A stretch of DNA of 64,000 nt, taken from contig JAQULK010000001.1 in assembly GCA_028718635.1 (NCBI GenBank), positions 396,818 to 460,817 of the forward strand, read 5' to 3'. Of this stretch, positions 6,100 through 36,427 are shown piece after piece. The position numbers and the translations under genes are program-made. The DNA is from Minisyncoccota bacterium (GTDB lineage: Bacteria > Patescibacteriota > Minisyncoccia > Phycocordibacterales > UBA9973). The notes under the pieces were generated by a model, which was not told the origin of the DNA, did no database searches, and worked only from the letters and a program-made list of their open reading frames with translations. The first letter of the stretch is position 1. Every line of letters starts with the position of its first letter.

Positions 6100-6921
6100 T
6101 TATAAGCTATCAAATGGGCTTTTAATATTTTTTATCGCAGGATTGGTTACTTTTGTGTATAATTGTGTGGTTCTGATATTGGCGTGGCCTAAAAGCTCTT
6201 GCACATAACGCACGTCCACACCATTTTCCAAAAGGTGAGTGGCAAAACTATGACGAAGTGAGTGAAAAGTAGCTTCTTTATTAATATTGCATTTTTTTAA
6301 AGCGTTTTCAAAAATCTTTTGTGCGGTTCTTTCTGTTAATTTGCCGCCACGTTCACTAGCAAAAACATAGTCATTTAAATTTCTTCCAGTTATTGATTTT
6401 TCAATTTTTTTACTTAGTTTTTTCGGGAAAATAGTAATTCTATCTTTGTTGCCTTTTGCCCCTTTGATATGAATAGTTAATTCTGCTAAATTTAAGTCTT
6501 TAATTTTTAAATTTGTTGTTTCACTGACCCTGAATCCGGAAGCATATGATAGAGAAATTAATAGTTGATGTTTTTCATTACTTATTGAATCAATAATTTT
6601 TTCAATTTCATTTCTTGACAATACGATTGGCAATTTACTCGGTGTTTTTGCAAATTTAATGTCAATTTTATTATGAAACTTTAGTACATTCCAACAGAAA
6701 AAATTAATAGCTTGTAAGCTTTGATTGATGGTTTGCGAAGACATTTTTTTATCAATTTTTGACAATAAATATCGCTTAATAAAATCAACATCTACCGAAT
6801 CAAAATTGTTTTGCTTAGTACGCAAATATTCAGCTACACAGCCCACGTAACTTTTAATAGTTTTAGGACTATAATTTCTGAGTTTTAGCTCGTCTTCTAG
6901 TTTTTTTAAATATACTTTCAT
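6100..6921 (-). CDS. Tyrosine site-specific recombinase (XerC/XerD / phage-integrase family)
   Basis: 'HSLRHSFATHLLENGVDVRYVQELLGHANIRTTQLYTKV' carries the R-H-R-Y catalytic box. N-terminal SAM-like core-binding domain. Confidence 0.85.
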   Translation of the reverse strand: MKVYLKKLEDELKLRNYSPKTIKSYVGCVAEYLRTKQNNFDSVDVDFIKRYLLSKIDKKMSSQTINQSLQAINFFCWNVLKFHNKIDIKFAKTPSKLPIVLSRNEIEKIIDSISNEKHQLLISLSYASGFRVSETTNLKIKDLNLAELTIHIKGAKGNKDRITIFPKKLSKKIEKSITGRNLNDYVFASERGGKLTERTAQKIFENALKKCNINKEATFHSLRHSFATHLLENGVDVRYVQELLGHANIRTTQLYTKVTNPAIKNIKSPFDSL

Positions 6922-7164
6922 TTATTTATTTGTTATAATTAAACTAATATAAATATACACAATAGTCGTAAAAAGTGCAATATTATACATACTATACGAA
7001 AACACTTCGTATATAAACGAGTTAGGCGAAATAATTTTTTTCTCTCTTTTAGAAATGTTTCCTTCTGGTCTTCTTTTTTTGAATAAGGAATGCAAAATAA
7101 GATTTTCTTTTTATTTTATAGAGGGGAATAAGGTGTTTTCTTCCGCTACGCTACAGAAAACGGA

Positions 7165-7214
7165 TTTTTTATATAAGTAAGAAAAAGCCCCAAATGGTTA
7201 TACCACCGGGGCTT
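7165..7214 (-). terminator. Intrinsic terminator downstream of the GC-rich islet gene 7280..8473
   Basis: Minus-strand hairpin aagcccc-N14-ggggctt followed by a T-run. Confidence 0.6.
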
Positions 7215-7279
7215 GAGTGAACTTGAAAGAACTATTTTACTCCCTGATTCGGCAGAGAGCTTACCGACCGCGATGGTTA

Positions 7280-8473
7280 TTAGGATTTGCCGACTGCATC
7301 CAACGCGTGTTTCAACGTTTTTTGGATGCACATAAATTGGCTAATCCCTTTTTCCCAGCAATCTGGGTTAGGGACCGAAACTTCCCTATTTCCGAATTTG
7401 CCTCTTTTTTCCTCCATTACTTTTTGAATCTCGGGATCCCTTCTCTGCTCAGCAGAGAGGTCTTGATAGTAATGAAGGATGATTTGAGGTTTGTCGCTCG
7501 CTCCGATCGCCTCCACCATTAATCTGGTGTTTTTTTTGAGGTAATCGCACGAGGGACATGCAACGTTGAGCATGTCGGGCTGCTGTCTGACCGCCCTTGA
7601 CATAATGTCAAGGCTGTCAAGCACTTCCTTTGACCCAGCAATAAGCCAATGTGGGCCCTCTTCATGCTCGAACATCGCCTCAATCACATCAGAATCCTTC
7701 TGCAGTTCAGGAGTAATTCCGACGTAATTGTTGGTTGCCAAGCTGATCGCCGCAAGGGCAACATCCTTGTCGCCTTTCAACCGTTCGGAGATAAAGCACA
7801 TGTGAGAATTCAAGGCTTCAACTCTCTTCTCGATCAGCCCGAGAACAAACTCCTTGTCATCCGCCATTTCAGGCAGCAGATGCTCTTCGCAAAATGCCCC
7901 TGGATTCTCAAGGAGGTACTTTTTTATCGCCTCGGCATCCCCGACAATTTCATCAGGAAGACAACTGCCGTGATCTACCTCAGTCGAGAAACCTCCCTCT
8001 TTCAGAAGGTCCACAACCGCGGCGTAACCATCGACTTCACCATGGCCGATGATCTGGAGAAAAACCGGGATAGGGATGCAGTTTTCGTCCTCGGTGCCAC
8101 GATTGACCCAGAGGAGATCATAGTAGGTATCTCCATCACACGATCTCCGTTCGTAGGAAATCTCATTGACACCAAAAAGAGTACCGAAGAAATCTCTGTT
8201 CTTATCTTCGTACTCCGCCTCACAGCCGTCAAAATTCAATCTGTCAAATATCATTTTCTTTTCTCCTTCTTTCAGAATTTTTGCCCGCAACTGCCGGAAT
8301 TGCTTCGCGACAGAAGTCGGGATGAGGTTTTGAGCGACAAGATTCTCAAGCCCGTCTTGAAGCGTCTTGAAAACTTTTTTGGCCTGGCCTTGCTCAAGGG
8401 TCAGGACTCCTCGCACCAACTGCTCAACCGTTAGCTCCGAGGACAAACTCCCGGTGCCGTCCATTTGGTCCAT
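7280..8473 (-). CDS. Hypothetical protein with DUF4116-like repeats, in a GC-rich islet
   Basis: Repeats 'DKEFVLGLIEK', 'DKDVALAAISL', 'DSDVIEAMFE' and 'DPEIQKVMEE'. Strong SD AAGGAGG 7 nt upstream of the ATG at 8473 (the ORF-caller start at 8575 is rejected). GC visibly higher than flanks. Confidence 0.6.
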   Translation of the reverse strand: MDQMDGTGSLSSELTVEQLVRGVLTLEQGQAKKVFKTLQDGLENLVAQNLIPTSVAKQFRQLRAKILKEGEKKMIFDRLNFDGCEAEYEDKNRDFFGTLFGVNEISYERRSCDGDTYYDLLWVNRGTEDENCIPIPVFLQIIGHGEVDGYAAVVDLLKEGGFSTEVDHGSCLPDEIVGDAEAIKKYLLENPGAFCEEHLLPEMADDKEFVLGLIEKRVEALNSHMCFISERLKGDKDVALAAISLATNNYVGITPELQKDSDVIEAMFEHEEGPHWLIAGSKEVLDSLDIMSRAVRQQPDMLNVACPSCDYLKKNTRLMVEAIGASDKPQIILHYYQDLSAEQRRDPEIQKVMEEKRGKFGNREVSVPNPDCWEKGISQFMCIQKTLKHALDAVGKS

Positions 8474-8551
8474 AGCGGATCCTCCTTTTTGGAATTTTAC
8501 TACTGTCCCGCCATCTGGTCGGTAATTCCGCTTATGCGGAAAATAGCTTGC

Positions 8552-8603
8552 TACGAAGTAGCAATAAAATGGCAAAAAATTGCCGTCTTATTGCTACTTC
8601 GTA
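8552..8603. promoter_or_regulatory. Long perfect hairpin/palindrome (16-bp arms, nested 5-bp inner hairpin) ~80 nt upstream of the islet gene
   Basis: tacgaagtagcaataa ... ggcaa-aaaa-ttgcc ... ttattgctacttcgta. No T-tract on either side, so it is not a terminator. Possible operator or 5' leader structure. Confidence 0.4.
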
Positions 8604-8730
8604 ATCCATTATTCAGTTTTCAAAGTGCTGTCAATTTTGATTTTTCAGTATAGCACCTTTTCAATAATCTGTCAATAGTAATATCGTAAAATGGCTTATT
8701 TTGGCTAAATAATCCAAAAAGCAACAAGGA

Positions 8731-8785
8731 GTTTTGGGCTTTGGGCATTCACCTCTTTAATTCCCCTCTGCCCAAAGCCCAAAAC
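8731..8785. repeat. 17-bp perfect inverted repeat (gttttgggctttgggca / tgcccaaagcccaaaac) with a 21-nt loop
   Basis: Seen directly. Lies in the non-coding spacer of the islet. Confidence 0.5.
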
Positions 8786-9007
8786 GGAAAATCTTATTTT
8801 GCTCTATATTATATAAAAGAAGACCAGAAGGAAACGAATAATAAGGATGAGAAAAAATTACATCGCCTAACAAGTTGTATCAGGTTCCAGAAATTCGCCT
8901 CAATTATCTTCCAAAGGAGTGCAAATTTCTTCCACCCAAATTTTTGCCTTCTTCTTTCTTTTATATTACACTAAGGAAAGAAGGCAAAAACTTCTGATAC
9001 AACTAAC

Positions 9008-9033
9008 GTTGTCTGAAATGACGAAAAACAAAA
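9008..9033. repeat. Left 26-bp terminal inverted repeat bracketing the small islet gene
   Basis: gttgtctgaaatgacgaaaaacaaaa. The partner at 9595..9620 matches 24 of 26 in inverted orientation. Confidence 0.55.
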
Positions 9034-9054
9034 AATGCAAAGTTATTTTTGGAA

Positions 9055-9098
9055 ATTTTTAAAAACAAAAAAAGGAGGGCAACAAAATGAAGCCCTCC
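9055..9098 (-). terminator. Intrinsic terminator of gene 9122..9457
   Basis: Minus-strand ggagggc-N11-gccctcc followed by TTTTTTTTGTTTTT. Confidence 0.7.
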
Positions 9099-9121
9099 GA
9101 AGTGTGCGTTAAAAAACGCTG

Positions 9122-9457
9122 TTAAATATCTTTGACATACAACCTGAATCCGCCGCCACCCCACGCCGACCACTGCTCAAGGCTGATTGTCCTTTCGGGG
9201 CTTATTACATCCTTGAGTTCCTCGATGTCGGCCTGGTCAAGCTCGGCACTGAACTCGCCAGGAAAGTCACATTTGGGGTGTTTGAACACGATTTTATTGC
9301 CCTCAAATGCGATGTCGGCGGTTCCGTCCCTAAACAGTGCCTTCGGAAATGACGCGCAAAAATCGATTGACTCCGTGTGTGGTTTTGCGCTCAGCTTAAC
9401 GCCGTTTATTCTTCCTGCATCATTCTTTGTTACCTCAACGTCAATCTCGTAGTTCAT
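9122..9457 (-). CDS. Hypothetical 111-aa protein, GC-rich islet cargo
   Basis: SD AGAGGAGG 6 nt upstream of the ATG at 9457. No recognisable motifs (ends SAWGGGGFRLYVKDI). Confidence 0.5.
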   Translation of the reverse strand: MNYEIDVEVTKNDAGRINGVKLSAKPHTESIDFCASFPKALFRDGTADIAFEGNKIVFKHPKCDFPGEFSAELDQADIEELKDVISPERTISLEQWSAWGGGGFRLYVKDI

Positions 9458-9594
9458 GGCCGCCTCCTCTTTTGGATTGTTTTTAAAAATTTCCAAAAAT
9501 AACTTGGAAATCGATGTGGTTAGATGTCGTTACTACCTTTAAAGAACTTCAAAGTAGTATACAGATTGTAGCGAAAATGTCAATATCGATTTCC

Positions 9595-9620
9595 TTTTGT
9601 TTTTCGTCACATCAGACAAC
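9595..9620. repeat. Right 26-bp terminal inverted repeat (partner of 9008..9033)
   Basis: ttttgtttttcgtcacatcagacaac. Confidence 0.55.
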
Positions 9621-9660
9621 ACAGCACATGCGGTTCAGAAATTTCTCATTTAAAGAGAAA

Positions 9661-9676
9661 GGGGTCAGGTACCTTT
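9661..9676. repeat. REP-like sequence, left flank of the RAYT
   Basis: ggggtcaggtaccttt. Its inverse complement occurs twice at the 3' flank. Confidence 0.6.
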
Positions 9677-9703
9677 AATTTAAAAATATGATATAATAAA
9701 AAA

Positions 9704-10375
9704 ATGCCACGTTCACCACGAGTCGATGTTGGAAATGAGTTATACCATGTGATCAACCGTGCTAATGCTCGTTTACCTATTTTCTTCAAAGAAGAAGATT
9801 TTGAACTTTTTGTTTCTATTTTAGAAGATGCACAAAAAAAATACGACATGAGAATTATTGCATATTGTTTAATGCCAAATCACTTTCATCTTGTTTTATA
9901 TCCAAGACAAGATAATGATTTGCAGAAATTTATGCAATGGGTAACACTTACTCACACTCAAAGATGGCACATCCATAACAAAACAATTGGTAGTGGACAT
10001 CTGTATCAAGGGAGATATAAATCTTTTTTAATAGAAGGGGATAAGCATCTTTTGTCTGTGATTCGTTATGTAGAACGCAATCCATTACGCGCAAAATTAG
10101 TTAAAAAAGCAGAGAATTGGAAATTTAACAGTTTGTCATATAGGCTTTTTAAAAATACTAATAAAAAACTTCTATCCAAATGGCCAATAGAAGAACCGAA
10201 AGATTATCTTTCTTTTGTAAATACACCGCAAACAAATTTTGAAGAGGAAAGTATTAGAATACCAATAATTAAAAGTAACCCATTTGGAAGCATTGATTGG
10301 TCGATTAAAACTATTAAAAAATTTGGTCTTGAATCAACAATTAGACAAAAAGGAAGACCTAGAAAAGGTACCTGA
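9704..10375 (+). CDS. REP-associated tyrosine transposase (RAYT; IS200/IS605-family Y1 transposase-like)
   Basis: 'YHVINRANARLPIF', 'IIAYCLMPNHFHLVLYP' (HUH motif) and 'GHLYQGRYKSFLIEGDKHLLSVIRYVERNPLRAKLV' (catalytic Y). The stop lies inside the 3' REP. Confidence 0.8.
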   Translation: MPRSPRVDVGNELYHVINRANARLPIFFKEEDFELFVSILEDAQKKYDMRIIAYCLMPNHFHLVLYPRQDNDLQKFMQWVTLTHTQRWHIHNKTIGSGHLYQGRYKSFLIEGDKHLLSVIRYVERNPLRAKLVKKAENWKFNSLSYRLFKNTNKKLLSKWPIEEPKDYLSFVNTPQTNFEEESIRIPIIKSNPFGSIDWSIKTIKKFGLESTIRQKGRPRKGT

Positions 10376-10419
10376 CCCCTTTTATTCCTAGAAAAGGTAC
10401 CTGACCCCTTTTATTCCTT
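10364..10419. repeat. Two tandem 28-bp REP copies (aaaaggtacctgaccccttttattcc x2), inverted relative to 9661..9676
   Basis: Direct tandem duplication seen in the sequence. Only two copies and no spacer periodicity, so not CRISPR. Confidence 0.6.
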
Positions 10420-10423
10420 TTAT

Positions 10424-10744
10424 TTGGTTACAAGAGAAAAAGGGGAATTCTCAGGTTGTTGGGAGACGCCTGGGGGACATATAGAACAGGGAGAAACACC
10501 AGAAGAGGCACTCATCAGAGAAGTCAAGGAAGAAGCAGGAGTTGATGTAAGAATTATAAAATTTTTAGGCATTTTTGAAAACAACAATAGTATTTGTAAT
10601 TATTTTGATTGTGAATTAGTGTCACCTAGGCAAATTGAGGGAAATAATCAAATAAGATTAATTTCCGTTAATGATATTTCAAAATATACAATAACACCAT
10701 TTGCCCTTGAGAATTTAATCAAGCTAGGGCTTTATAAAAAGTAA
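10424..10744 (+). CDS. NUDIX hydrolase, apparently N-terminally truncated (TTG start abutting the REP)
   Basis: Nudix box 'GGHIEQGETPEEALIREVKEEAGV'. Only ~15 aa precede the box, where ~35 would be expected. Confidence 0.6.
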   Translation: MVTREKGEFSGCWETPGGHIEQGETPEEALIREVKEEAGVDVRIIKFLGIFENNNSICNYFDCELVSPRQIEGNNQIRLISVNDISKYTITPFALENLIKLGLYKK

Positions 10745-33147: not shown

Positions 33148-33435
33148 ATGAGTATTAAAGATTTACAAAATAAATTATCCCCAATATTTAAGCAATATGG
33201 TGTCAAACATGCTGCAATTTTTGGATCCGTGTCCAGGGGAGAAGATACCCCAGAAAGTGATGTTGACGTGCTTGTAAAATTAGGTAAGCCAATGGGTTTA
33301 GTGGGCTTTTCGGGATTAGTGATAAAGATGGAAGAAATACTAGGACGAAAAGTTGATCTATTAGCTGAAGGTGGTGTAAATAAATTTTTAGAACCTTACA
33401 TTTTACCAGATCTAAAAACCATCTATGAAGAATAA
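33148..33435 (+). CDS. Nucleotidyltransferase (MNT-type antitoxin)
   Basis: 'IFGSVSRGEDTPESDVDVLV' minimal NTase fold. Confidence 0.8.
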   Translation: MSIKDLQNKLSPIFKQYGVKHAAIFGSVSRGEDTPESDVDVLVKLGKPMGLVGFSGLVIKMEEILGRKVDLLAEGGVNKFLEPYILPDLKTIYEE

Positions 33436-33745
33436 TAAAGTTTACATAGATCAAATTCTTGATTCGATTAAAAAAATTGAGTTATTTGTAAATGGAATTG
33501 ATAAAGAAAATTTTCTAACAAATTCTTTAGTTCAAAGTGGAGTGATTATGCAACTCACATTAATTGGAGAAATTTCAAAAAAAATTTCTAATGATTTAAA
33601 ATTAAAAATAAATTTGCCATGGAAAGAAATAGCTGGATTTAGAGATAAAGCTATTCATAATTATTTTGATATTAATTTAGATGTGGTTTGGAATACAATT
33701 ATTATTGATTTACCACCGTTAAAAGAAGAATTGATTAAGCAATAA
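33425..33745 (+). CDS. HepT-like HEPN (DUF86) toxin, overlapping the MNT gene by 11 nt
   Basis: 'WKEIAGFRDKAIHNYFDINLDVVW' is the Rx4-6H HEPN motif. Confidence 0.8.
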   Translation: MKNNKVYIDQILDSIKKIELFVNGIDKENFLTNSLVQSGVIMQLTLIGEISKKISNDLKLKINLPWKEIAGFRDKAIHNYFDINLDVVWNTIIIDLPPLKEELIKQ

Positions 33746-33802: not shown

Positions 33803-36427
33803 GTGAATGACGCTCGCCAATTTTGTCATCCTGAACTTGTTTCAGGATCTAATGCGTTTGCCAAAATAATAAAACTTTTCCGTTTCATTTTTTTCTTCTC
33901 GATATTTCTGGGAAGCTTTTTTGTTTTGGCAAACGAAGCAAGCGCGGCGACGTATTATGTGGATGCGACTCTTGGAAAGGATACATATAATGGTATAACC
34001 ACAACTATAAATGATGGAGCAAGTGAAGGTCCATGGAAAACACTAACTAAAGTAAATGCCGCGCTGAATGCCGCTTCTATTCATGCTGGTGATAGTGTTT
34101 TATTTAAAGCAGGGGAGACTTTCTTTGGCTATTTGTATGTTAAGGTAACGGGAACGGTAGGAAATATATTAACATTTGATTCCTATGGAAGTGGAAATAA
34201 ACCTATAATCGACGCTACTGGAAATAATAGCGGTATCGATCTTCGTGGAATAAATTATGTTACGTTTAATAATTTGGATGTTAGAAATGCAACATTCCAA
34301 GGATACTTTTTTCTCAATGGAAATGACCACATAACAATAAATAATGGAAGTATATCTTCTTCTGCAAAGGCTATCCATCTCTATAACAATACAATTTCAA
34401 ATCTAACAATTTCAAATCTAAATGCCAGTAATAATACATATGGTATTTATGGATTTGCCGGGGTTACTGTTAACACATTGTCCATATCCAATAGCCATTT
34501 CGACGACAACACATCAGAAGGTTTTTTCACCGATGGCACTGCGAACGGGAGTAATTTTACGATAACAGATACCACCATGTCCCGTAATGGGATCGGATCT
34601 GATAAAAATGGATTTTTACTACAAGGGACCGGCAGTACAGTTATCCTTACCAGGGTAACATCAGCCAACAACGGAGGGGATGGATTTGGTGTCCATAACA
34701 CTTGGATTGGTGTTATTTTTGATTATTGTACGGCGGATACTAACGGAACAGACGGGATAGGATCAGATGGAGACGGATTCAGTTTCCATGAGACTTCTTC
34801 TGGAATAATCAGGTATTCAATCAGCAAAAATAATTTAAAAACTGCGATTGCTCACGTTAATAGCTCCGCTGTTGAAATGTATTATGATCTTTTTTATCAT
34901 GCAACCAATGGCACCTTGCCGCTTGTTTTATTACAAAATACTGGAAATCATAAATTATATAATAATATTATTTACAGTGGAAGTCAGACTGGTGATGCAG
35001 TAAGCGTTGAAGGGACCGTTGATATGCAAAACAATATAATAGATGGTTTCAATCGTGGCCTTATAAAAACTGGAGGAACAATATCCAATGACCATGATAT
35101 TATTTATGGAGTATTAACTTCTAATTATGTTGGTATTTCTGCCGGTGCTTATTCAATTATACAGGATCCAAAATTTTTTAATTCCAGTATTTATAACTTT
35201 TCCCTTCTCCCCACTTCCCCCGCCATCGACTCTGGCACCGATGTCTCATTAACCACCGACTACGCCGGCAATTCCATCTACGGTACGCCCGACATCGGCG
35301 CTTATGAATACCAGCCGCCATATACCATGGGCACGGATGCAGTAAACACTTCCACCAGTGTCAGAATGTACGGAGACGAAAAGTTCAGAAACAAAACCGC
35401 CACCACCACGGAAACCACGGCTGATCTCTCAATTACCATTCCCGACTCGGATAAAACCAAGTGGCTGGACATAGCAGTTTCCACCTGGGACAACTCCGGA
35501 ACTTATCACAAAACCTGGACGGAAAACACTACCAGCACCATTACCAACACCCTCCATACCATCGGAGACCTGGAACCCAACAAATACTACAATGTGTCCG
35601 TGGATTCCGTTCTGGGAAACAACATTACCGGCGATAACTGTTCAAACGGCCTCTGTCTTTCCAACGCGGAAGGTAAAATATCTTTTACCTATACTGGTTC
35701 ATATTCCGAACACACCTTTGACGTGGAAGAAGGAGATAATACCGCCCCCATCCGTTCCGCCGGTTTGCCTTCCGGCAGTCAACCTGCTGGCACAACGCAA
35801 GTAACAATGTCTTTGACCACCGACGAAAACGCCACCTGCAAATACTCCACCTCTGCCGACACCGCTTACGCTTCCATGACCGATACCTTTACCACAACTG
35901 GCACCCAATCCCATTCCACCACCATTTCCGGTCTCTCCAACGGCAATACATACAATTACTATGTCCGCTGCACTGACGGCTCAAATGCTAACAGCAACGA
36001 TTACCCTATTTCTTTTTCCATTACTAACCCTACCGCGCATTCTTCAGGCAACAGTGCTCAGAGTCGAATCAACAATCTGCTCTCCATGGGCAACTACACC
36101 CAAGCGCAACAATTGGCTAATCAATACAATATTTCAATTCCAGTAATTACCACCCCGCCTACAGCACCCCTCCTGAATCAAGGAGGGGAAAGAAGTGTTA
36201 ATGCTTACAACTTTGGTCTCTCTGTTCTCAAAAAAGGAAGCAAGGGTGAGGCTGTGAAAGAATTGCAGAAGTTCTTAAACCAAGATCTGAAACTAAACTT
36301 GAAAATAGACGGCATCTTGGGATCAAAAACAACTATGGCTATCAAACAATACCAAAAAGCGCATAATCTAAAAGTGGATGGGGTAGTGGGGGAGAAGACG
36401 AGGGGGAGGATGAATGGGGAGAAATAG
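33803..36427 (+). CDS. Large secreted right-handed beta-helix protein with a C-terminal peptidoglycan-binding domain
   Basis: Signal/TM 'FRFIFFFSIFLGSFFVLANEASA', repeated 'NNxI.N' beta-helix rungs, C-terminal PG_binding_1-like 'GSKGEAVKELQKFLN...DGILGSKTTMAIKQYQKAHNLKVDGVVG'. GTG start. Confidence 0.7.
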   Translation: MNDARQFCHPELVSGSNAFAKIIKLFRFIFFFSIFLGSFFVLANEASAATYYVDATLGKDTYNGITTTINDGASEGPWKTLTKVNAALNAASIHAGDSVLFKAGETFFGYLYVKVTGTVGNILTFDSYGSGNKPIIDATGNNSGIDLRGINYVTFNNLDVRNATFQGYFFLNGNDHITINNGSISSSAKAIHLYNNTISNLTISNLNASNNTYGIYGFAGVTVNTLSISNSHFDDNTSEGFFTDGTANGSNFTITDTTMSRNGIGSDKNGFLLQGTGSTVILTRVTSANNGGDGFGVHNTWIGVIFDYCTADTNGTDGIGSDGDGFSFHETSSGIIRYSISKNNLKTAIAHVNSSAVEMYYDLFYHATNGTLPLVLLQNTGNHKLYNNIIYSGSQTGDAVSVEGTVDMQNNIIDGFNRGLIKTGGTISNDHDIIYGVLTSNYVGISAGAYSIIQDPKFFNSSIYNFSLLPTSPAIDSGTDVSLTTDYAGNSIYGTPDIGAYEYQPPYTMGTDAVNTSTSVRMYGDEKFRNKTATTTETTADLSITIPDSDKTKWLDIAVSTWDNSGTYHKTWTENTTSTITNTLHTIGDLEPNKYYNVSVDSVLGNNITGDNCSNGLCLSNAEGKISFTYTGSYSEHTFDVEEGDNTAPIRSAGLPSGSQPAGTTQVTMSLTTDENATCKYSTSADTAYASMTDTFTTTGTQSHSTTISGLSNGNTYNYYVRCTDGSNANSNDYPISFSITNPTAHSSGNSAQSRINNLLSMGNYTQAQQLANQYNISIPVITTPPTAPLLNQGGERSVNAYNFGLSVLKKGSKGEAVKELQKFLNQDLKLNLKIDGILGSKTTMAIKQYQKAHNLKVDGVVGEKTRGRMNGEK

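What the first reader, a model, noticed from the sequence alone, without database searches (positions are those of the whole stretch)
7150..9620. GC-rich two-gene islet next to a tyrosine recombinase, with the downstream gene flanked by 26-bp inverted repeats
From ~7150 to ~9500 the GC content rises visibly above the AT-rich flanks. Both genes (a 398-aa DUF4116-repeat protein and a 111-aa unknown) are on the minus strand. Each has a canonical AGGAGG-type SD and its own intrinsic terminator, features largely absent from the surrounding genes. The small gene plus its promoter and terminator is bracketed by near-identical 26-bp inverted repeats (9008-9033, 9595-9620; 24/26), like a minimal TIR-bounded cassette. 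A XerC-like integrase (6100-6921) abuts the islet. This looks like horizontally acquired cargo of unknown function, possibly a toxin/immunity or defense-related pair.
Basis: partly seen in the sequence, partly recalled or inferred. Interest (0 to 1): 0.7.

Follow-up and report, generated by a model that had tools for sequence, protein, structure and literature searches.

The report
Integron-like gene cassettes beside a recombinase
The GC-rich islet is two foreign gene cassettes next to a Xer/integron-type recombinase; the conserved DNA hairpin site between them recurs in at least 120 bacterial and archaeal genomes, which points to an integron-like gene-capture system I could not find described.

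Summary
GC and GC3 of both genes are far above the host's, and the 26-bp inverted repeat is real (24/26; no comparable repeat in 40 shuffles).

Both genes are separate cassettes bounded by 5'-GTTRNNNGATGT...ATTTCNNNYAAC-3', which are the integron core and inverse-core consensus. A structured ~130-nt hairpin element, called X here, lies between them. The array ends at a palindromic site just upstream of a 273-aa tyrosine recombinase.

A strict X pattern (about one chance match expected) hit at least 120 genome loci in CPR bacteria, many Archaea and other phyla. Twenty of these carry a homologue of this recombinase. Most share the window's geometry, and all 12 readable junctions examined share its junction. 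X stems covary strongly.

Each window gene recurs elsewhere as the same cassette with different neighbours. A close relative holds a different cassette at the same chromosomal locus. Cargo in other arrays is diverse and includes restriction-modification and defence genes.

The recombinase lacks the integron-integrase-specific domain, and X differs from canonical attC. I therefore read this as an integron-like platform, a new variant rather than a canonical integron. Recombination itself is inferred, not shown. The two genes are not a functional pair, and their functions remain unknown.

The parts
6100..6921 (-). Tyrosine recombinase, 273 aa, Xer/XerA/IntI-like, without the IntI-specific additional domain.
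   Evidence: Pfam Phage_integrase 1.4e-42 plus an N-terminal SAM-like domain. NCBIfam: XerA_Arch 'recombinase/integron integrase' 219.4 bits (cutoff 220); integron integrase TIGR02249 218.4 (cutoff 265); XerC/XerD 184/181 (cutoffs 335/330). PDB: XerA 1e-39, IntI4 3e-37. The query has 17 aa where IntI4 has 60. It is the only tyrosine recombinase in the window.
6993..7020 (-). Recombinase-proximal core site (attI- or dif-like): palindrome TATACGAA-AACAC-TTCGTATA (6993-7013) plus the spacer up to the first cassette boundary.
   Evidence: The architecture 'ATTTCNNNYAAC | 5 nt | TATATRCGAAGT...' is conserved ~90-110 nt upstream of the recombinase start in 12 other loci; a second palindrome arm (TTCGYATA) is clear in about five of them. 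Read outward from the recombinase it ends ...AAACGAG|TTAGGC, which has the form G|TTRRRY.
7021..8871 (-). Cassette 1, carrying the DUF4116 gene. Bounded by GTTAGGCGATGT (8871->8860) and ATTTCGCCTAAC (7032->7021), with ~97-nt complementary end modules at 7021-7112 and 8782-8871.
   Evidence: Inverted repeats I1 and I11. Motif hits. The same cassette with the same end modules occurs in a Moranbacteria array, L142: 86.5% and 80.4% DNA identity.
7181..7213 (-). Intrinsic terminator of the big gene.
   Evidence: Stem AGCCCC...GGGGCT followed by a T run; folds.
7280..8476 (-). Cargo gene 1: 398-aa protein with a conserved ~145-aa N-terminal region plus DUF4116. GC 0.485, GC3 0.551.
   Evidence: The family has only 8 members among 5.8e9 proteins; the C-terminus is swapped in P0005-P0008.
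8552..8675 (-). Promoter of the big gene (-35 at 8675-8670, -10 at 8652-8647) and a 24-nt palindrome in the 5' leader (8552-8603).
   Evidence: The leader palindrome is conserved in L002 and L142.
8872..9007 (-). X element, an attC-like hairpin site. On the minus strand: AAC | GTTA | stem a GTTGTATCAG | AAGTT | hairpin | AAATTTGGG | second hairpin | stem a' CTGATACAAC | TT | GTT.
   Evidence: Folds as ssDNA at -27.7 kcal/mol, z -4.75. Same family in >=120 genome loci. Covariation score 0.432 against 0.123 in shuffles. No Rfam match.
9008..9620 (-). Cassette 2, carrying the 111-aa gene. Outer repeat 9008-9033 / 9595-9620; inner repeat 9040-9068 / 9477-9505; promoter module 9507-9594 with its own 10-nt repeat; terminator 9066-9098.
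   Evidence: A homologous cassette with compensatory changes in all three repeats occurs in L010 and L019; L020 keeps diverged outer and inner repeats and L021 the upstream end. The whole cassette folds as ssDNA at -121.3 kcal/mol, z -9.2.
9122..9457 (-). Cargo gene 2: 111-aa protein of unknown fold and function. GC 0.491, GC3 0.580.
9621..9650 (-). Truncated remnant of the distal X element (ACAGCACATGCGGTTC on the plus strand), cut off by the REP/RAYT unit.
   Evidence: Alignment with L010, L019 and L021, where a full X precedes the cassette. In the relative L133 the distal X is complete and abuts def.

Best explanation
Window 6993-9650 is a small integron-like gene-capture array on the chromosome of a Candidatus Pacebacteria bacterium.

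Layout: the 273-aa tyrosine recombinase gene is preceded by a palindromic core site. Two cassettes abut that site. Each cassette is a unit 5'-GTTRNNNGATGT...cargo...ATTTCNNNYAAC-3' whose ends are complementary to each other. A structured ~130-nt hairpin element (X) separates the cassettes. X begins after AAC and ends before GTT, as an integron attC lies between RYYYAAC and GTTRRRY.

Proposed mechanism (inferred): the recombinase exchanges strands at the conserved AAC|GTT boundaries, between a folded single-stranded X site and the site next to its own gene. Cassettes enter at the recombinase-proximal end, can be excised, and move between genomes.

The two window cassettes came from GC-richer donors. 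They lie in the minority orientation, transcribed towards the recombinase. That fits each carrying its own strong promoter, Shine-Dalgarno and terminator.

Shown: the architecture, its conservation, stem covariation, the link to the recombinase, and the same cassettes in different arrays.
Inferred: the recombination chemistry, the single-stranded substrate and the crossover point.
For: 1. Cassette ends match the integron core and inverse-core consensus. They carry a conserved TG/AA asymmetry that follows array polarity rather than gene polarity.

2. X is a real, widespread family.
- The pattern AACGTTN{4,8}TATCWGAAGTTN{12,42}ATTTGGG has a chance expectation of about 1 (my calculation, assuming even base composition).
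- All hits share features that were not part of the search pattern.
- Stem a/a' has <=1 mismatch in 108 of 191 copies, against 13 of 191 in a swapped control.
- In the formal test, stem a/a' is 97.3% paired, 7 of its 9 pairs show compensatory changes, and the whole-structure score is 0.432 against 0.123 (0 of 500 shuffles reach it).

3. X is linked to the recombinase.
- Homologues at 38-78% identity occur in 20 of the 120 loci, each locus at most 8 kb.
- In 15 loci including the window, the X copies lie on the promoter side of the gene and on the same strand.
- The junction 'YAAC | 5 nt | TATATRCGAAGT...' is conserved in all 12 readable junctions examined.

4. The cassettes move.
- The small-gene cassette occurs in five different contexts; DNA homology starts at GTT and ends at AAC where both ends are on the contig (L010, L019); the repeats covary.
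- The big-gene cassette recurs in a Moranbacteria array.
- The close relative L133 (def 81%, hisS 78% identity) has a different cassette at the same locus.

5. The arrays behave like integrons.
- In 31 of 36 inter-X segments the largest ORF points away from the recombinase.
- Cargo is diverse: a restriction-modification system, TIR and SLATT domains, Cass2, permeases, deaminases.

6. One strand is favoured. The strand antisense to most ORFs folds better in 129 of 135 X copies, as for the attC bottom strand.

7. The cargo is foreign: GC3 is 0.55-0.58 against 0.21-0.34 in neighbours.
Against: - No direct evidence of recombination. No circular-cassette junction, empty site or strain polymorphism was examined.
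- The recombinase lacks the IntI additional domain that binds attC extrahelical bases.
- It sits in a housekeeping def/fmt neighbourhood. It may simply be the cell's Xer, with the palindrome as its dif site.
- X differs from canonical attC. Its spacers are 4-6 nt and 1-2 nt rather than 5 and 5, its L stems are 10-12 bp, and its primary sequence is conserved.
- The X copies flanking the small cassette differ between contexts. One X in L021 has non-complementary stems. The crossover point is therefore uncertain.
- The long complementary cassette ends and the perfect inner repeats are not needed in the integron model and remain unexplained.
- Nearly all the data come from metagenome-assembled genomes. 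Some taxon labels may be binning errors.
Confidence: 0.7

Rival explanations
1. The recombinase is the cell's housekeeping Xer, the palindrome upstream of its gene is the chromosomal dif site, and the cassettes are Xer-exploiting integrative elements (IMEX-like) that pile up at dif. The closest model is CTX phage, whose folded single-stranded hairpin integrates at dif.
For: - The best structural relatives are XerA proteins.
- The XerA family score is 219.4 against a cutoff of 220.
- The gene lies with def and fmt in the window, L060 and L055.
- It is the only tyrosine recombinase in 64 kb.
- The proximal site is a palindrome next to the gene. From my own knowledge, this resembles difSL/xerS and difH/xerH.
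Against: - The palindrome is 8-5-8 and does not resemble the bacterial dif consensus as I recall it.
- The termination region cannot be located from this window.
- The ordered array of co-oriented cassettes with a hairpin site after each one is the integron pattern rather than that of known IMEX elements.
- This reading overlaps with the best explanation more than it excludes it.
Confidence: 0.2
2. It is a canonical integron: the recombinase is an IntI and X is an ordinary attC.
For: - RYYYAAC and GTTRRRY cores are present.
- The array sits next to a recombinase and the junction is G|TTRRRY-like.
- TIGR02249 scores 218 bits.
Against: - The TIGR02249 score is below its cutoff of 265.
- The IntI-specific domain is absent.
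- X geometry and its conserved sequence are unlike aadA7 attC and nine archaeal attCs.
- The cassettes here have their own promoters and reversed orientation.
Confidence: 0.04
3. The inverted repeats are inversion sites: the recombinase flips each gene relative to its promoter, giving phase variation.
For: - A recombinase is adjacent.
- The perfect 29-nt inner repeat brackets the Shine-Dalgarno, coding sequence and terminator while the promoter lies outside it.
- Perfect arms could reflect ongoing exchange.
Against: - The small gene has the same orientation relative to its promoter and to the TG/AA asymmetry in all five contexts.
- In L021 a promoter lies inside the inner repeat.
- Inner repeats share no common sequence that a recombinase could recognise.
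Confidence: 0.03
4. The cassettes are non-autonomous transposons with terminal inverted repeats, moved by a transposase in trans or by the neighbouring REP-associated Y1 transposase.
For: - The cassettes have terminal inverted repeats.
- A Y1 transposase gene (9704-10375) abuts the array.
Against: - There are no target-site duplications. The flanks are always X elements, so placement is site-specific.
- The Y1 gene has its own unrelated 19-nt REP repeats.
- A homologue of it was found in none of the 120 X loci.
Confidence: 0.02
5. The islet is an assembly chimera or contaminant join.
For: - There is an abrupt GC change.
- The source is a metagenome-assembled genome.
Against: - An independent assembly is identical across the right border.
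- Both borders fall at conserved junction motifs seen in many other loci.
- L142 shows the same cassette in another array.
Confidence: 0.01

Closest known systems
Integrons (IntI, attI, attC cassette arrays), including sedentary chromosomal and archaeal integrons (Ghaly et al. 2022, PMC9668308)
   Same: - A tyrosine recombinase gene has a recombination site at its 5' side, followed by an array of mostly single-gene cassettes.
- Cassette boundaries are GTTRRRY / RYYYAAC.
- A 64-165-nt imperfect-palindrome site lies between cassettes, and one strand folds better.
- Most ORFs point away from the recombinase, and cargo is diverse.
- Relatives carry different cassettes at the same locus.
- A minority of arrays have the recombinase gene inverted (6 loci). 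Integrons likewise come in regular and inverted-integrase types (PMC13323075).
   Different: - The recombinase is 273 aa and lacks the IntI additional domain.
- The hairpin site has a conserved primary sequence (GAAGTT, AATTTGGG), a 10-12-bp inner stem and asymmetric spacers.
- Cassette ends are complementary over 17-30 nt or more, not 6-7 nt.
- The cassettes here have nested inner repeats, their own promoters and terminators, and reversed orientation.
Xer/dif systems and the elements that exploit them: CTX phage single-stranded hairpin integration at dif, and single-recombinase XerS/difSL, XerH/difH and XerA (from my own knowledge)
   Same: - A simple Xer-type recombinase.
- A palindromic core site next to the recombinase gene, as for xerS and xerH.
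- A folded single-stranded hairpin as a plausible substrate, as for CTX phage.
- A housekeeping gene neighbourhood.
   Different: - Known IMEX elements are phages or islands, not ordered arrays of single-gene cassettes each followed by a conserved hairpin.
- The core site here is 8-5-8 and unlike dif.
- No FtsK or terminus context could be tested.
pdif modules of Acinetobacter plasmids: genes bracketed by inversely oriented XerC/XerD sites (from my own knowledge)
   Same: Discrete gene modules bracketed by inverted recombinase-type sites, strung together, and carrying accessory genes.
   Different: - pdif sites are 28-bp dif-like duplex sites shared between adjacent modules.
- Here the bracketing repeats are cassette-specific and complementary, and a separate structured element lies between the units.
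- This array is chromosomal and next to the recombinase gene.
'Cand' subgroup of simple tyrosine recombinases (Smyshlyaev et al. 2021, PMC8138268)
   Same: Xer-related short recombinases from candidate phyla. The window protein plausibly belongs to this group.
   Different: That work presumed a Xer-like housekeeping role. It does not describe any association with cassette arrays or hairpin sites.

Membership tests
Integron | Integrase of the IntI clade with the IntI-specific additional domain around patch III | tested here: not met
   Aligned to VchIntIA (2a3v), the query has 17 aa where IntI4 has 60. TIGR02249 scores 218.4, below its cutoff of 265, in two stretches.
Integron | Cassette boundaries with core GTTRRRY and inverse core RYYYAAC | tested here: met
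   GTTAGGC / GCCTAAC for cassette 1; GTTGTCT / AGACAAC (imperfect) for cassette 2. The R' consensus from 108 X copies is GTT-A-[G/T]-N-[C/T].
Integron | attC geometry: R''-5 nt-L''...L'-5 nt-R' with an unpaired central spacer and extrahelical bases, and conservation of structure rather than sequence | tested here: not met
   X has spacers of 4-6 nt and 1-2 nt, a 10-12-bp inner stem, and invariant GAAGTT and ATTTGGG. The ten reference attCs lack these features. IntegronFinder's attC model could not be run.
Integron | Array adjacent to the integrase gene, with an attI ending in G|TTRRRY | tested here: met
   Window 6993-7027. The junction is conserved in 12 other loci, and the geometry in 15 loci.
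Integron | Mostly promoterless, co-oriented cassettes transcribed away from intI | tested here: inconclusive
   In the family, 31 of 36 largest ORFs point away from the recombinase. Both window cassettes point towards it and have their own promoters.
Integron | Integrase-catalysed excision and insertion of cassettes through the folded bottom strand | not testable with these tools
   Only indirect evidence: the same cassettes in different arrays and a folding bias towards one strand.
Xer/dif (chromosome dimer resolution) with IMEX | Recombinase reaches the family threshold for XerC, XerD, XerS, XerH or XerA | tested here: inconclusive
   XerA_Arch 219.4 against a cutoff of 220. XerC 183.8 against 335 and XerD 180.9 against 330, both well below threshold.
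Xer/dif (chromosome dimer resolution) with IMEX | A dif site of 11-6-11 type at the replication terminus | not testable with these tools
   An 8-5-8 palindrome lies next to the gene. The terminus cannot be placed from 64 kb; skew follows gene strand.
Invertible DNA switch (inverton) | Both orientations of the repeat-bounded segment occur | tested here: not met
   Only one orientation was seen in five independent contexts of the small cassette. Read-level data were not available.
Transposon or MITE with terminal inverted repeats | Target-site duplication and insertion at varied sites | tested here: not met
   There are no direct repeats at the ends. In the window, L010 and L019-L021 the flank is an X element or the recombinase-proximal site; more distant small-gene homologues (L015-L018) have neither the repeats nor X.
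REP/RAYT | REP palindromes flanking, or dispersed around, a Y1 transposase | tested here: met
   Met only for the neighbouring unit at 9658-10411. Those REPs are unrelated to the cassette repeats, and no homologue of this gene is found in the X loci.

The most novel reading that the evidence does not exclude
X elements together with these short Xer/IntI-like recombinases form a previously unrecognised family of integron-like gene-capture platforms. The family spans both domains: CPR bacteria, methanogens, ANME, Bathyarchaeia, DPANN and others.

It would be either a sister lineage of classical integrons or a Xer-to-integron intermediate. It uses a sequence-conserved hairpin site in place of attC and works without the IntI additional domain.

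It could account for part of the large excess of 'integron-type' recombinases that have no detectable attC. One study found this for 97.4% of such contigs (PMC13323075).
Probability: 0.5. Interest if true: 0.9.

Novelty: new variant of a known kind. Interest (0 to 1): 0.8.

Why it matters
**Scope of integron-like gene capture.** Integrons are the textbook system for capturing and shuffling genes. They are currently defined by IntI, with its special domain, and by attC. This locus suggests the same logic operates with a simpler Xer-like enzyme and a different, sequence-conserved hairpin. The system appears in the tiny genomes of CPR bacteria and in many Archaea.

**What that would provide:**
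- A concrete candidate for the 'novel attC sites' invoked to explain why most environmental integron-type recombinases have no detectable cassettes.
- A possible evolutionary bridge between Xer/dif and integrons.
- A route for gene flow between domains.
- A searchable motif for cataloguing a large pool of accessory genes, including defence genes, in uncultivated lineages.

**For this window.** It explains why two GC-rich, self-sufficient genes sit between housekeeping genes.

Tried and rejected
- **Third motif hit.** A third GTTRNNNGATGT hit at 34658, near a second GC-rich stretch (35.2-36.1 kb), lies inside an 874-aa Thr/Ser-rich surface protein. It is a chance match with a compositional cause.
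- **Rfam.** A search of 6800-10500 at E<=1 returned only weak chance hits and nothing on X.
- **Defence and phage libraries.** PADLOC gave nothing for either cargo protein. PHROGs gave only one weak match, to an unknown-function family.
- **Viral contigs.** No X match.
- **More distant small-gene homologues** (L015-L018) lack the repeats and X, so the cassette form is not universal for this gene.
- **P0003 homologues of the big gene** (L002-L009) sit next to an HTH_38 protein and are not in an X array.
- **P0002 locus.** No DNA was available.
- **L020 cargo** looked tRNA-like by eye, but ARAGORN finds nothing.
- **RAYT as mobiliser.** Rejected.
- **Literature.** Nine searches found no description of attC-like sites or integrons in CPR groups, and none of this element. 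The library holds open-access papers only, so absence is not proof.


Full report

Yes.
- GC rises to 0.47-0.49 over 7200-8600 and 0.43-0.455 over 9000-9600, with a dip to 0.34 between. The flanks are 0.26-0.34.
- The 1200-nt window on the big gene is the GC maximum of the whole 64 kb (0.485; mean 0.371, sd 0.031).
- Third-codon-position GC is 0.551 and 0.580, against 0.205-0.344 in eight neighbouring genes.
- The genes are 7280-8476(-), 398 aa with one DUF4116 match, and 9122-9457(-), 111 aa with no Pfam match.
- Both have an AGGAGG Shine-Dalgarno, a near-consensus promoter (11 of 12 matches) and an intrinsic terminator that folds.
- The 26-bp inverted repeat 9008-9033 / 9595-9620 is 24/26. 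Repeats of that quality never arose in 40 shuffles.
- The adjacent ORF 6100-6921(-) is a tyrosine recombinase.

**2.

Repeats around the small gene are nested.
- A perfect 29-nt repeat (9040-9068 / 9477-9505) lies inside the 26-nt one.
- The promoter segment has its own 10-nt repeat (9507-9516 / 9585-9594).
- As single-stranded DNA, the whole 613-nt unit folds into one long coaxial stem with the gene in the loop. The energy is -121.3 kcal/mol, z -9.2.

The big gene is also bracketed, by a ~97-nt imperfect repeat at 7016-7112 / 8782-8876.

Both units begin 5'-GTTRNNNGATGT and end ATTTCNNNYAAC-3' on the minus strand. These are the integron core (GTTRRRY) and inverse core (RYYYAAC).

Between the two units lies a 136-nt element, 8872-9007, which I call X. 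It reads: AAC | 4-nt spacer | 10-nt stem a | AAGTT | hairpin | AAATTTGGG | second hairpin | stem a' | TT | GTT. It folds at z -4.75.

**3. Source and independent support**

The big protein is identical to a protein from a Candidatus Pacebacteria metagenome-assembled genome, on a 672-kb contig. A separate Logan assembly contig is 100% identical to 8970-10387.

**4. The two genes are independent cassettes**

Homologues of each gene occur without the other.

The small-gene cassette:
- It recurs in four further contexts: L010-14, L019, L020 (beside a TrwB/TraG coupling protein) and L021.
- Where both ends are on the contig (L010, L019), DNA homology starts at GTT and stops at AAC.
- In L010 and L019 the outer, inner and promoter repeats all carry compensatory changes, and the two central mismatches (TG in one arm, AA in the other) are conserved. 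L020 keeps diverged versions of the outer and inner repeats.

In L021, three of the five small genes in 2.9 kb are bracketed by such repeats and X elements lie between the genes.

The big-gene cassette:
- It recurs in a Moranbacteria array, L142, with the same promoter, leader and ~150-nt 3' end module.
- DNA identity is 86.5% and 80.4%. A full X and a further cassette follow it.

**5. X is a large family spanning both domains**

Distribution:
- The hits include many CPR lineages and many Archaea: Methanosarcinales, ANME-1, Bathyarchaeia, Halobacteria, Thermoplasmatales, Nanoarchaeota and others.
- They also include contigs binned to Gammaproteobacteria, Bacteroidota, Cloacimonadota, Calothrix and Clostridia. 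Some of these labels may be binning errors.
- Viral contigs gave none.

Structure:
- All copies share features that were not in the search pattern: stem a', a terminal GTTRNNYGATGT and a preceding ATTTCNNNYAAC.
- Stem a/a' has <=1 mismatch in 108 of 191 copies, against 13 of 191 in a swapped control, with 52 distinct stems. Length from AAC to GTT is 64-165 nt, median 94.
- On 41 aligned copies, stem a/a' is 97.3% paired and 7 of its 9 pairs show compensatory changes. Hairpin 1 is 85% paired with 5 of 7.
- The covariation score is 0.432, against 0.123 for shuffles (0 of 500 reach it) and 0.045-0.127 for slid controls.
- One strand folds better in 129 of 135 copies.
- Loops are rich in GCGAAGC-type motifs. 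From my own knowledge, these form very stable DNA mini-hairpins.

**6. Link to the recombinase**

- Homologues of the window recombinase (38-78% identity) lie in 20 of the 120 loci, each at most 8 kb.
- In 15 loci including the window, all X copies are on the recombinase gene's strand and on its promoter side, with up to five per locus. Six more distant cases have the gene inverted.
- The junction is conserved in 12 other loci: last cassette end ATTTCNNNYAAC | 5 nt | TATATRCGAAGT..., about 90-110 nt before the start codon; about five also show the second palindrome arm TTCGYATA.
- The left arm of this proximal site resembles the left half of X.
- Read outward from the recombinase, the site ends G|TTAGGC, the form of attI1 as I recall it.

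**7. Array behaviour**

- In 31 of 36 inter-X segments the largest ORF points away from the recombinase, as in classical integrons.
- 14 of the 36 have terminal repeats of at least 17 nt with the same TG/AA asymmetry.
- Cargo is diverse: MjaI endonuclease plus a methylase, a CAP12/Pycsar TIR domain, SLATT/DUF4231, Cass2, GyrI-like, permeases, peptidases, deaminases, NUDIX and transposases.
- The close relative L133 (def 81%, hisS 78% identity) carries an array at the same locus with a different cassette.
- The window's two genes, and all cassette-form copies of the small gene (L010-14, L019, L020, L021), are in the minority orientation. That fits their self-contained promoters and terminators.

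**8. The recombinase**

- Its relation to XerA (1e-39) and to the integron integrase VchIntIA (3e-37) is about equal, and both are much closer than XerD (1e-21).
- NCBIfam places it just under the XerA 'recombinase/integron integrase' cutoff, and below the integron-integrase and XerC/XerD cutoffs.
- Against VchIntIA it has 17 residues where IntI has 60, so the IntI additional domain is absent.
- The catalytic residues R, K, HxxR, H and Y are visible in the alignments.
- It lies with def and fmt in several genomes, so it may double as the cell's Xer.

**9. Comparison with what is known**

- The organisation is that of an integron. However, a defining enzyme feature is missing.
- The site also differs from aadA7 attC and nine archaeal attCs in geometry and in having a conserved sequence. 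I therefore do not file it as a canonical integron.
- Xer/dif exploitation, as with the CTX phage hairpin, is the nearest alternative and is not exclusive of the main reading.
- I found no description of this element.
- A 2026 study reports that 97.4% of contigs with 'integron-type' recombinases lack a detectable attC. It suggests novel attC sites as one reason.
- Smyshlyaev et al. treat candidate-phyla recombinases as presumed Xer substitutes.

**10. Limits**

- Recombination, the single-stranded substrate and the crossover point are all inferred.
- The long complementary ends and perfect inner repeats are unexplained. My guess is that they zip the cassette ends together in single-stranded DNA.
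- The X copies beside the small cassette differ between contexts, and one X in L021 is a hybrid.
- Cargo functions remain unknown.

**Verdict**

The best explanation is an integron-like cassette array, confidence 0.7. Novelty: new variant of a known kind. Interest: 0.8.

Noticed in passing
window 9658-10415: A REP-associated tyrosine transposase gene (9704-10375, NCBIfam 78.4 against a cutoff of 80) is flanked by inverted copies of a 19-nt REP-like sequence, AAAGGGGTCAGGTACCTTT, at 9658-9676, 10364-10382 and 10393-10411. The right side is a perfect 29-nt tandem duplication (10358-10415). The unit appears to have truncated the distal X of the array.
   Followed up: partly
window 33803-36427 (GC-rich part 35200-36100): There is a second GC-rich stretch (0.49-0.54, strong negative GC skew). 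It lies inside an 874-aa secreted, beta-helix-like protein, in a Thr/Ser/Gly/Ala-rich region. The cause is composition, not a cassette.
   Followed up: yes
window 33148-33745: Two overlapping small ORFs of 95 and 106 aa look, by their motifs, like a nucleotidyltransferase / HEPN (DUF86) toxin-antitoxin pair. This rests on reading the translations only.
   Followed up: no
window 7280-8603; P0005-P0008; L002, L142: In the big-protein family the first ~75-145 residues and the 5' leader, with its 24-nt palindrome (8552-8603), are nearly invariant. The C-terminal part is exchanged for unrelated sequence in several members. This looks like domain shuffling behind a conserved head and a possible operator.
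   Followed up: partly
L020 3160-3490: A repeat-bounded cassette (19-nt perfect repeat) has a strong promoter, no convincing ORF, and a highly structured region with a T-arm-like GGTTCGATACC motif. ARAGORN calls no tRNA or tmRNA. It may be a small-RNA cargo.
   Followed up: partly
L063, L127, L043, L113, L042, L111: In six loci, mostly archaeal or with distant homologues (35-45% identity in the four with most of the gene; two are short fragments), the recombinase gene is convergent with the X array rather than co-directional. This resembles the 'inverted integrase' class of integrons.
   Followed up: no
window 6100-6113: The recombinase stop overlaps the start of fmt by 14 nt. In L060 and L055 the order is array-recombinase-def-fmt. 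The recombinase is therefore embedded in a conserved housekeeping operon.
   Followed up: partly
L001 (= window 8970-10387): The independent Logan contig ends at 8970, inside the apical loop of X, and at 10387, in the 29-nt tandem repeat. The first break could reflect population variation at X or simply low coverage.
   Followed up: no
window 7090-7165; L112, L125, L033, L142: A ~150-nt module is conserved next to the recombinase-proximal site, or at a cassette 3' end, in several arrays with different cargo. It contains the hairpin GTTTTC-TGTAGCGTAGCGGAA-GAAAAC, then CCTTATTCCCCTCTATAAAATAAAAA. Its role is unknown; it could be a promoter or leader, or a folding aid.
   Followed up: partly
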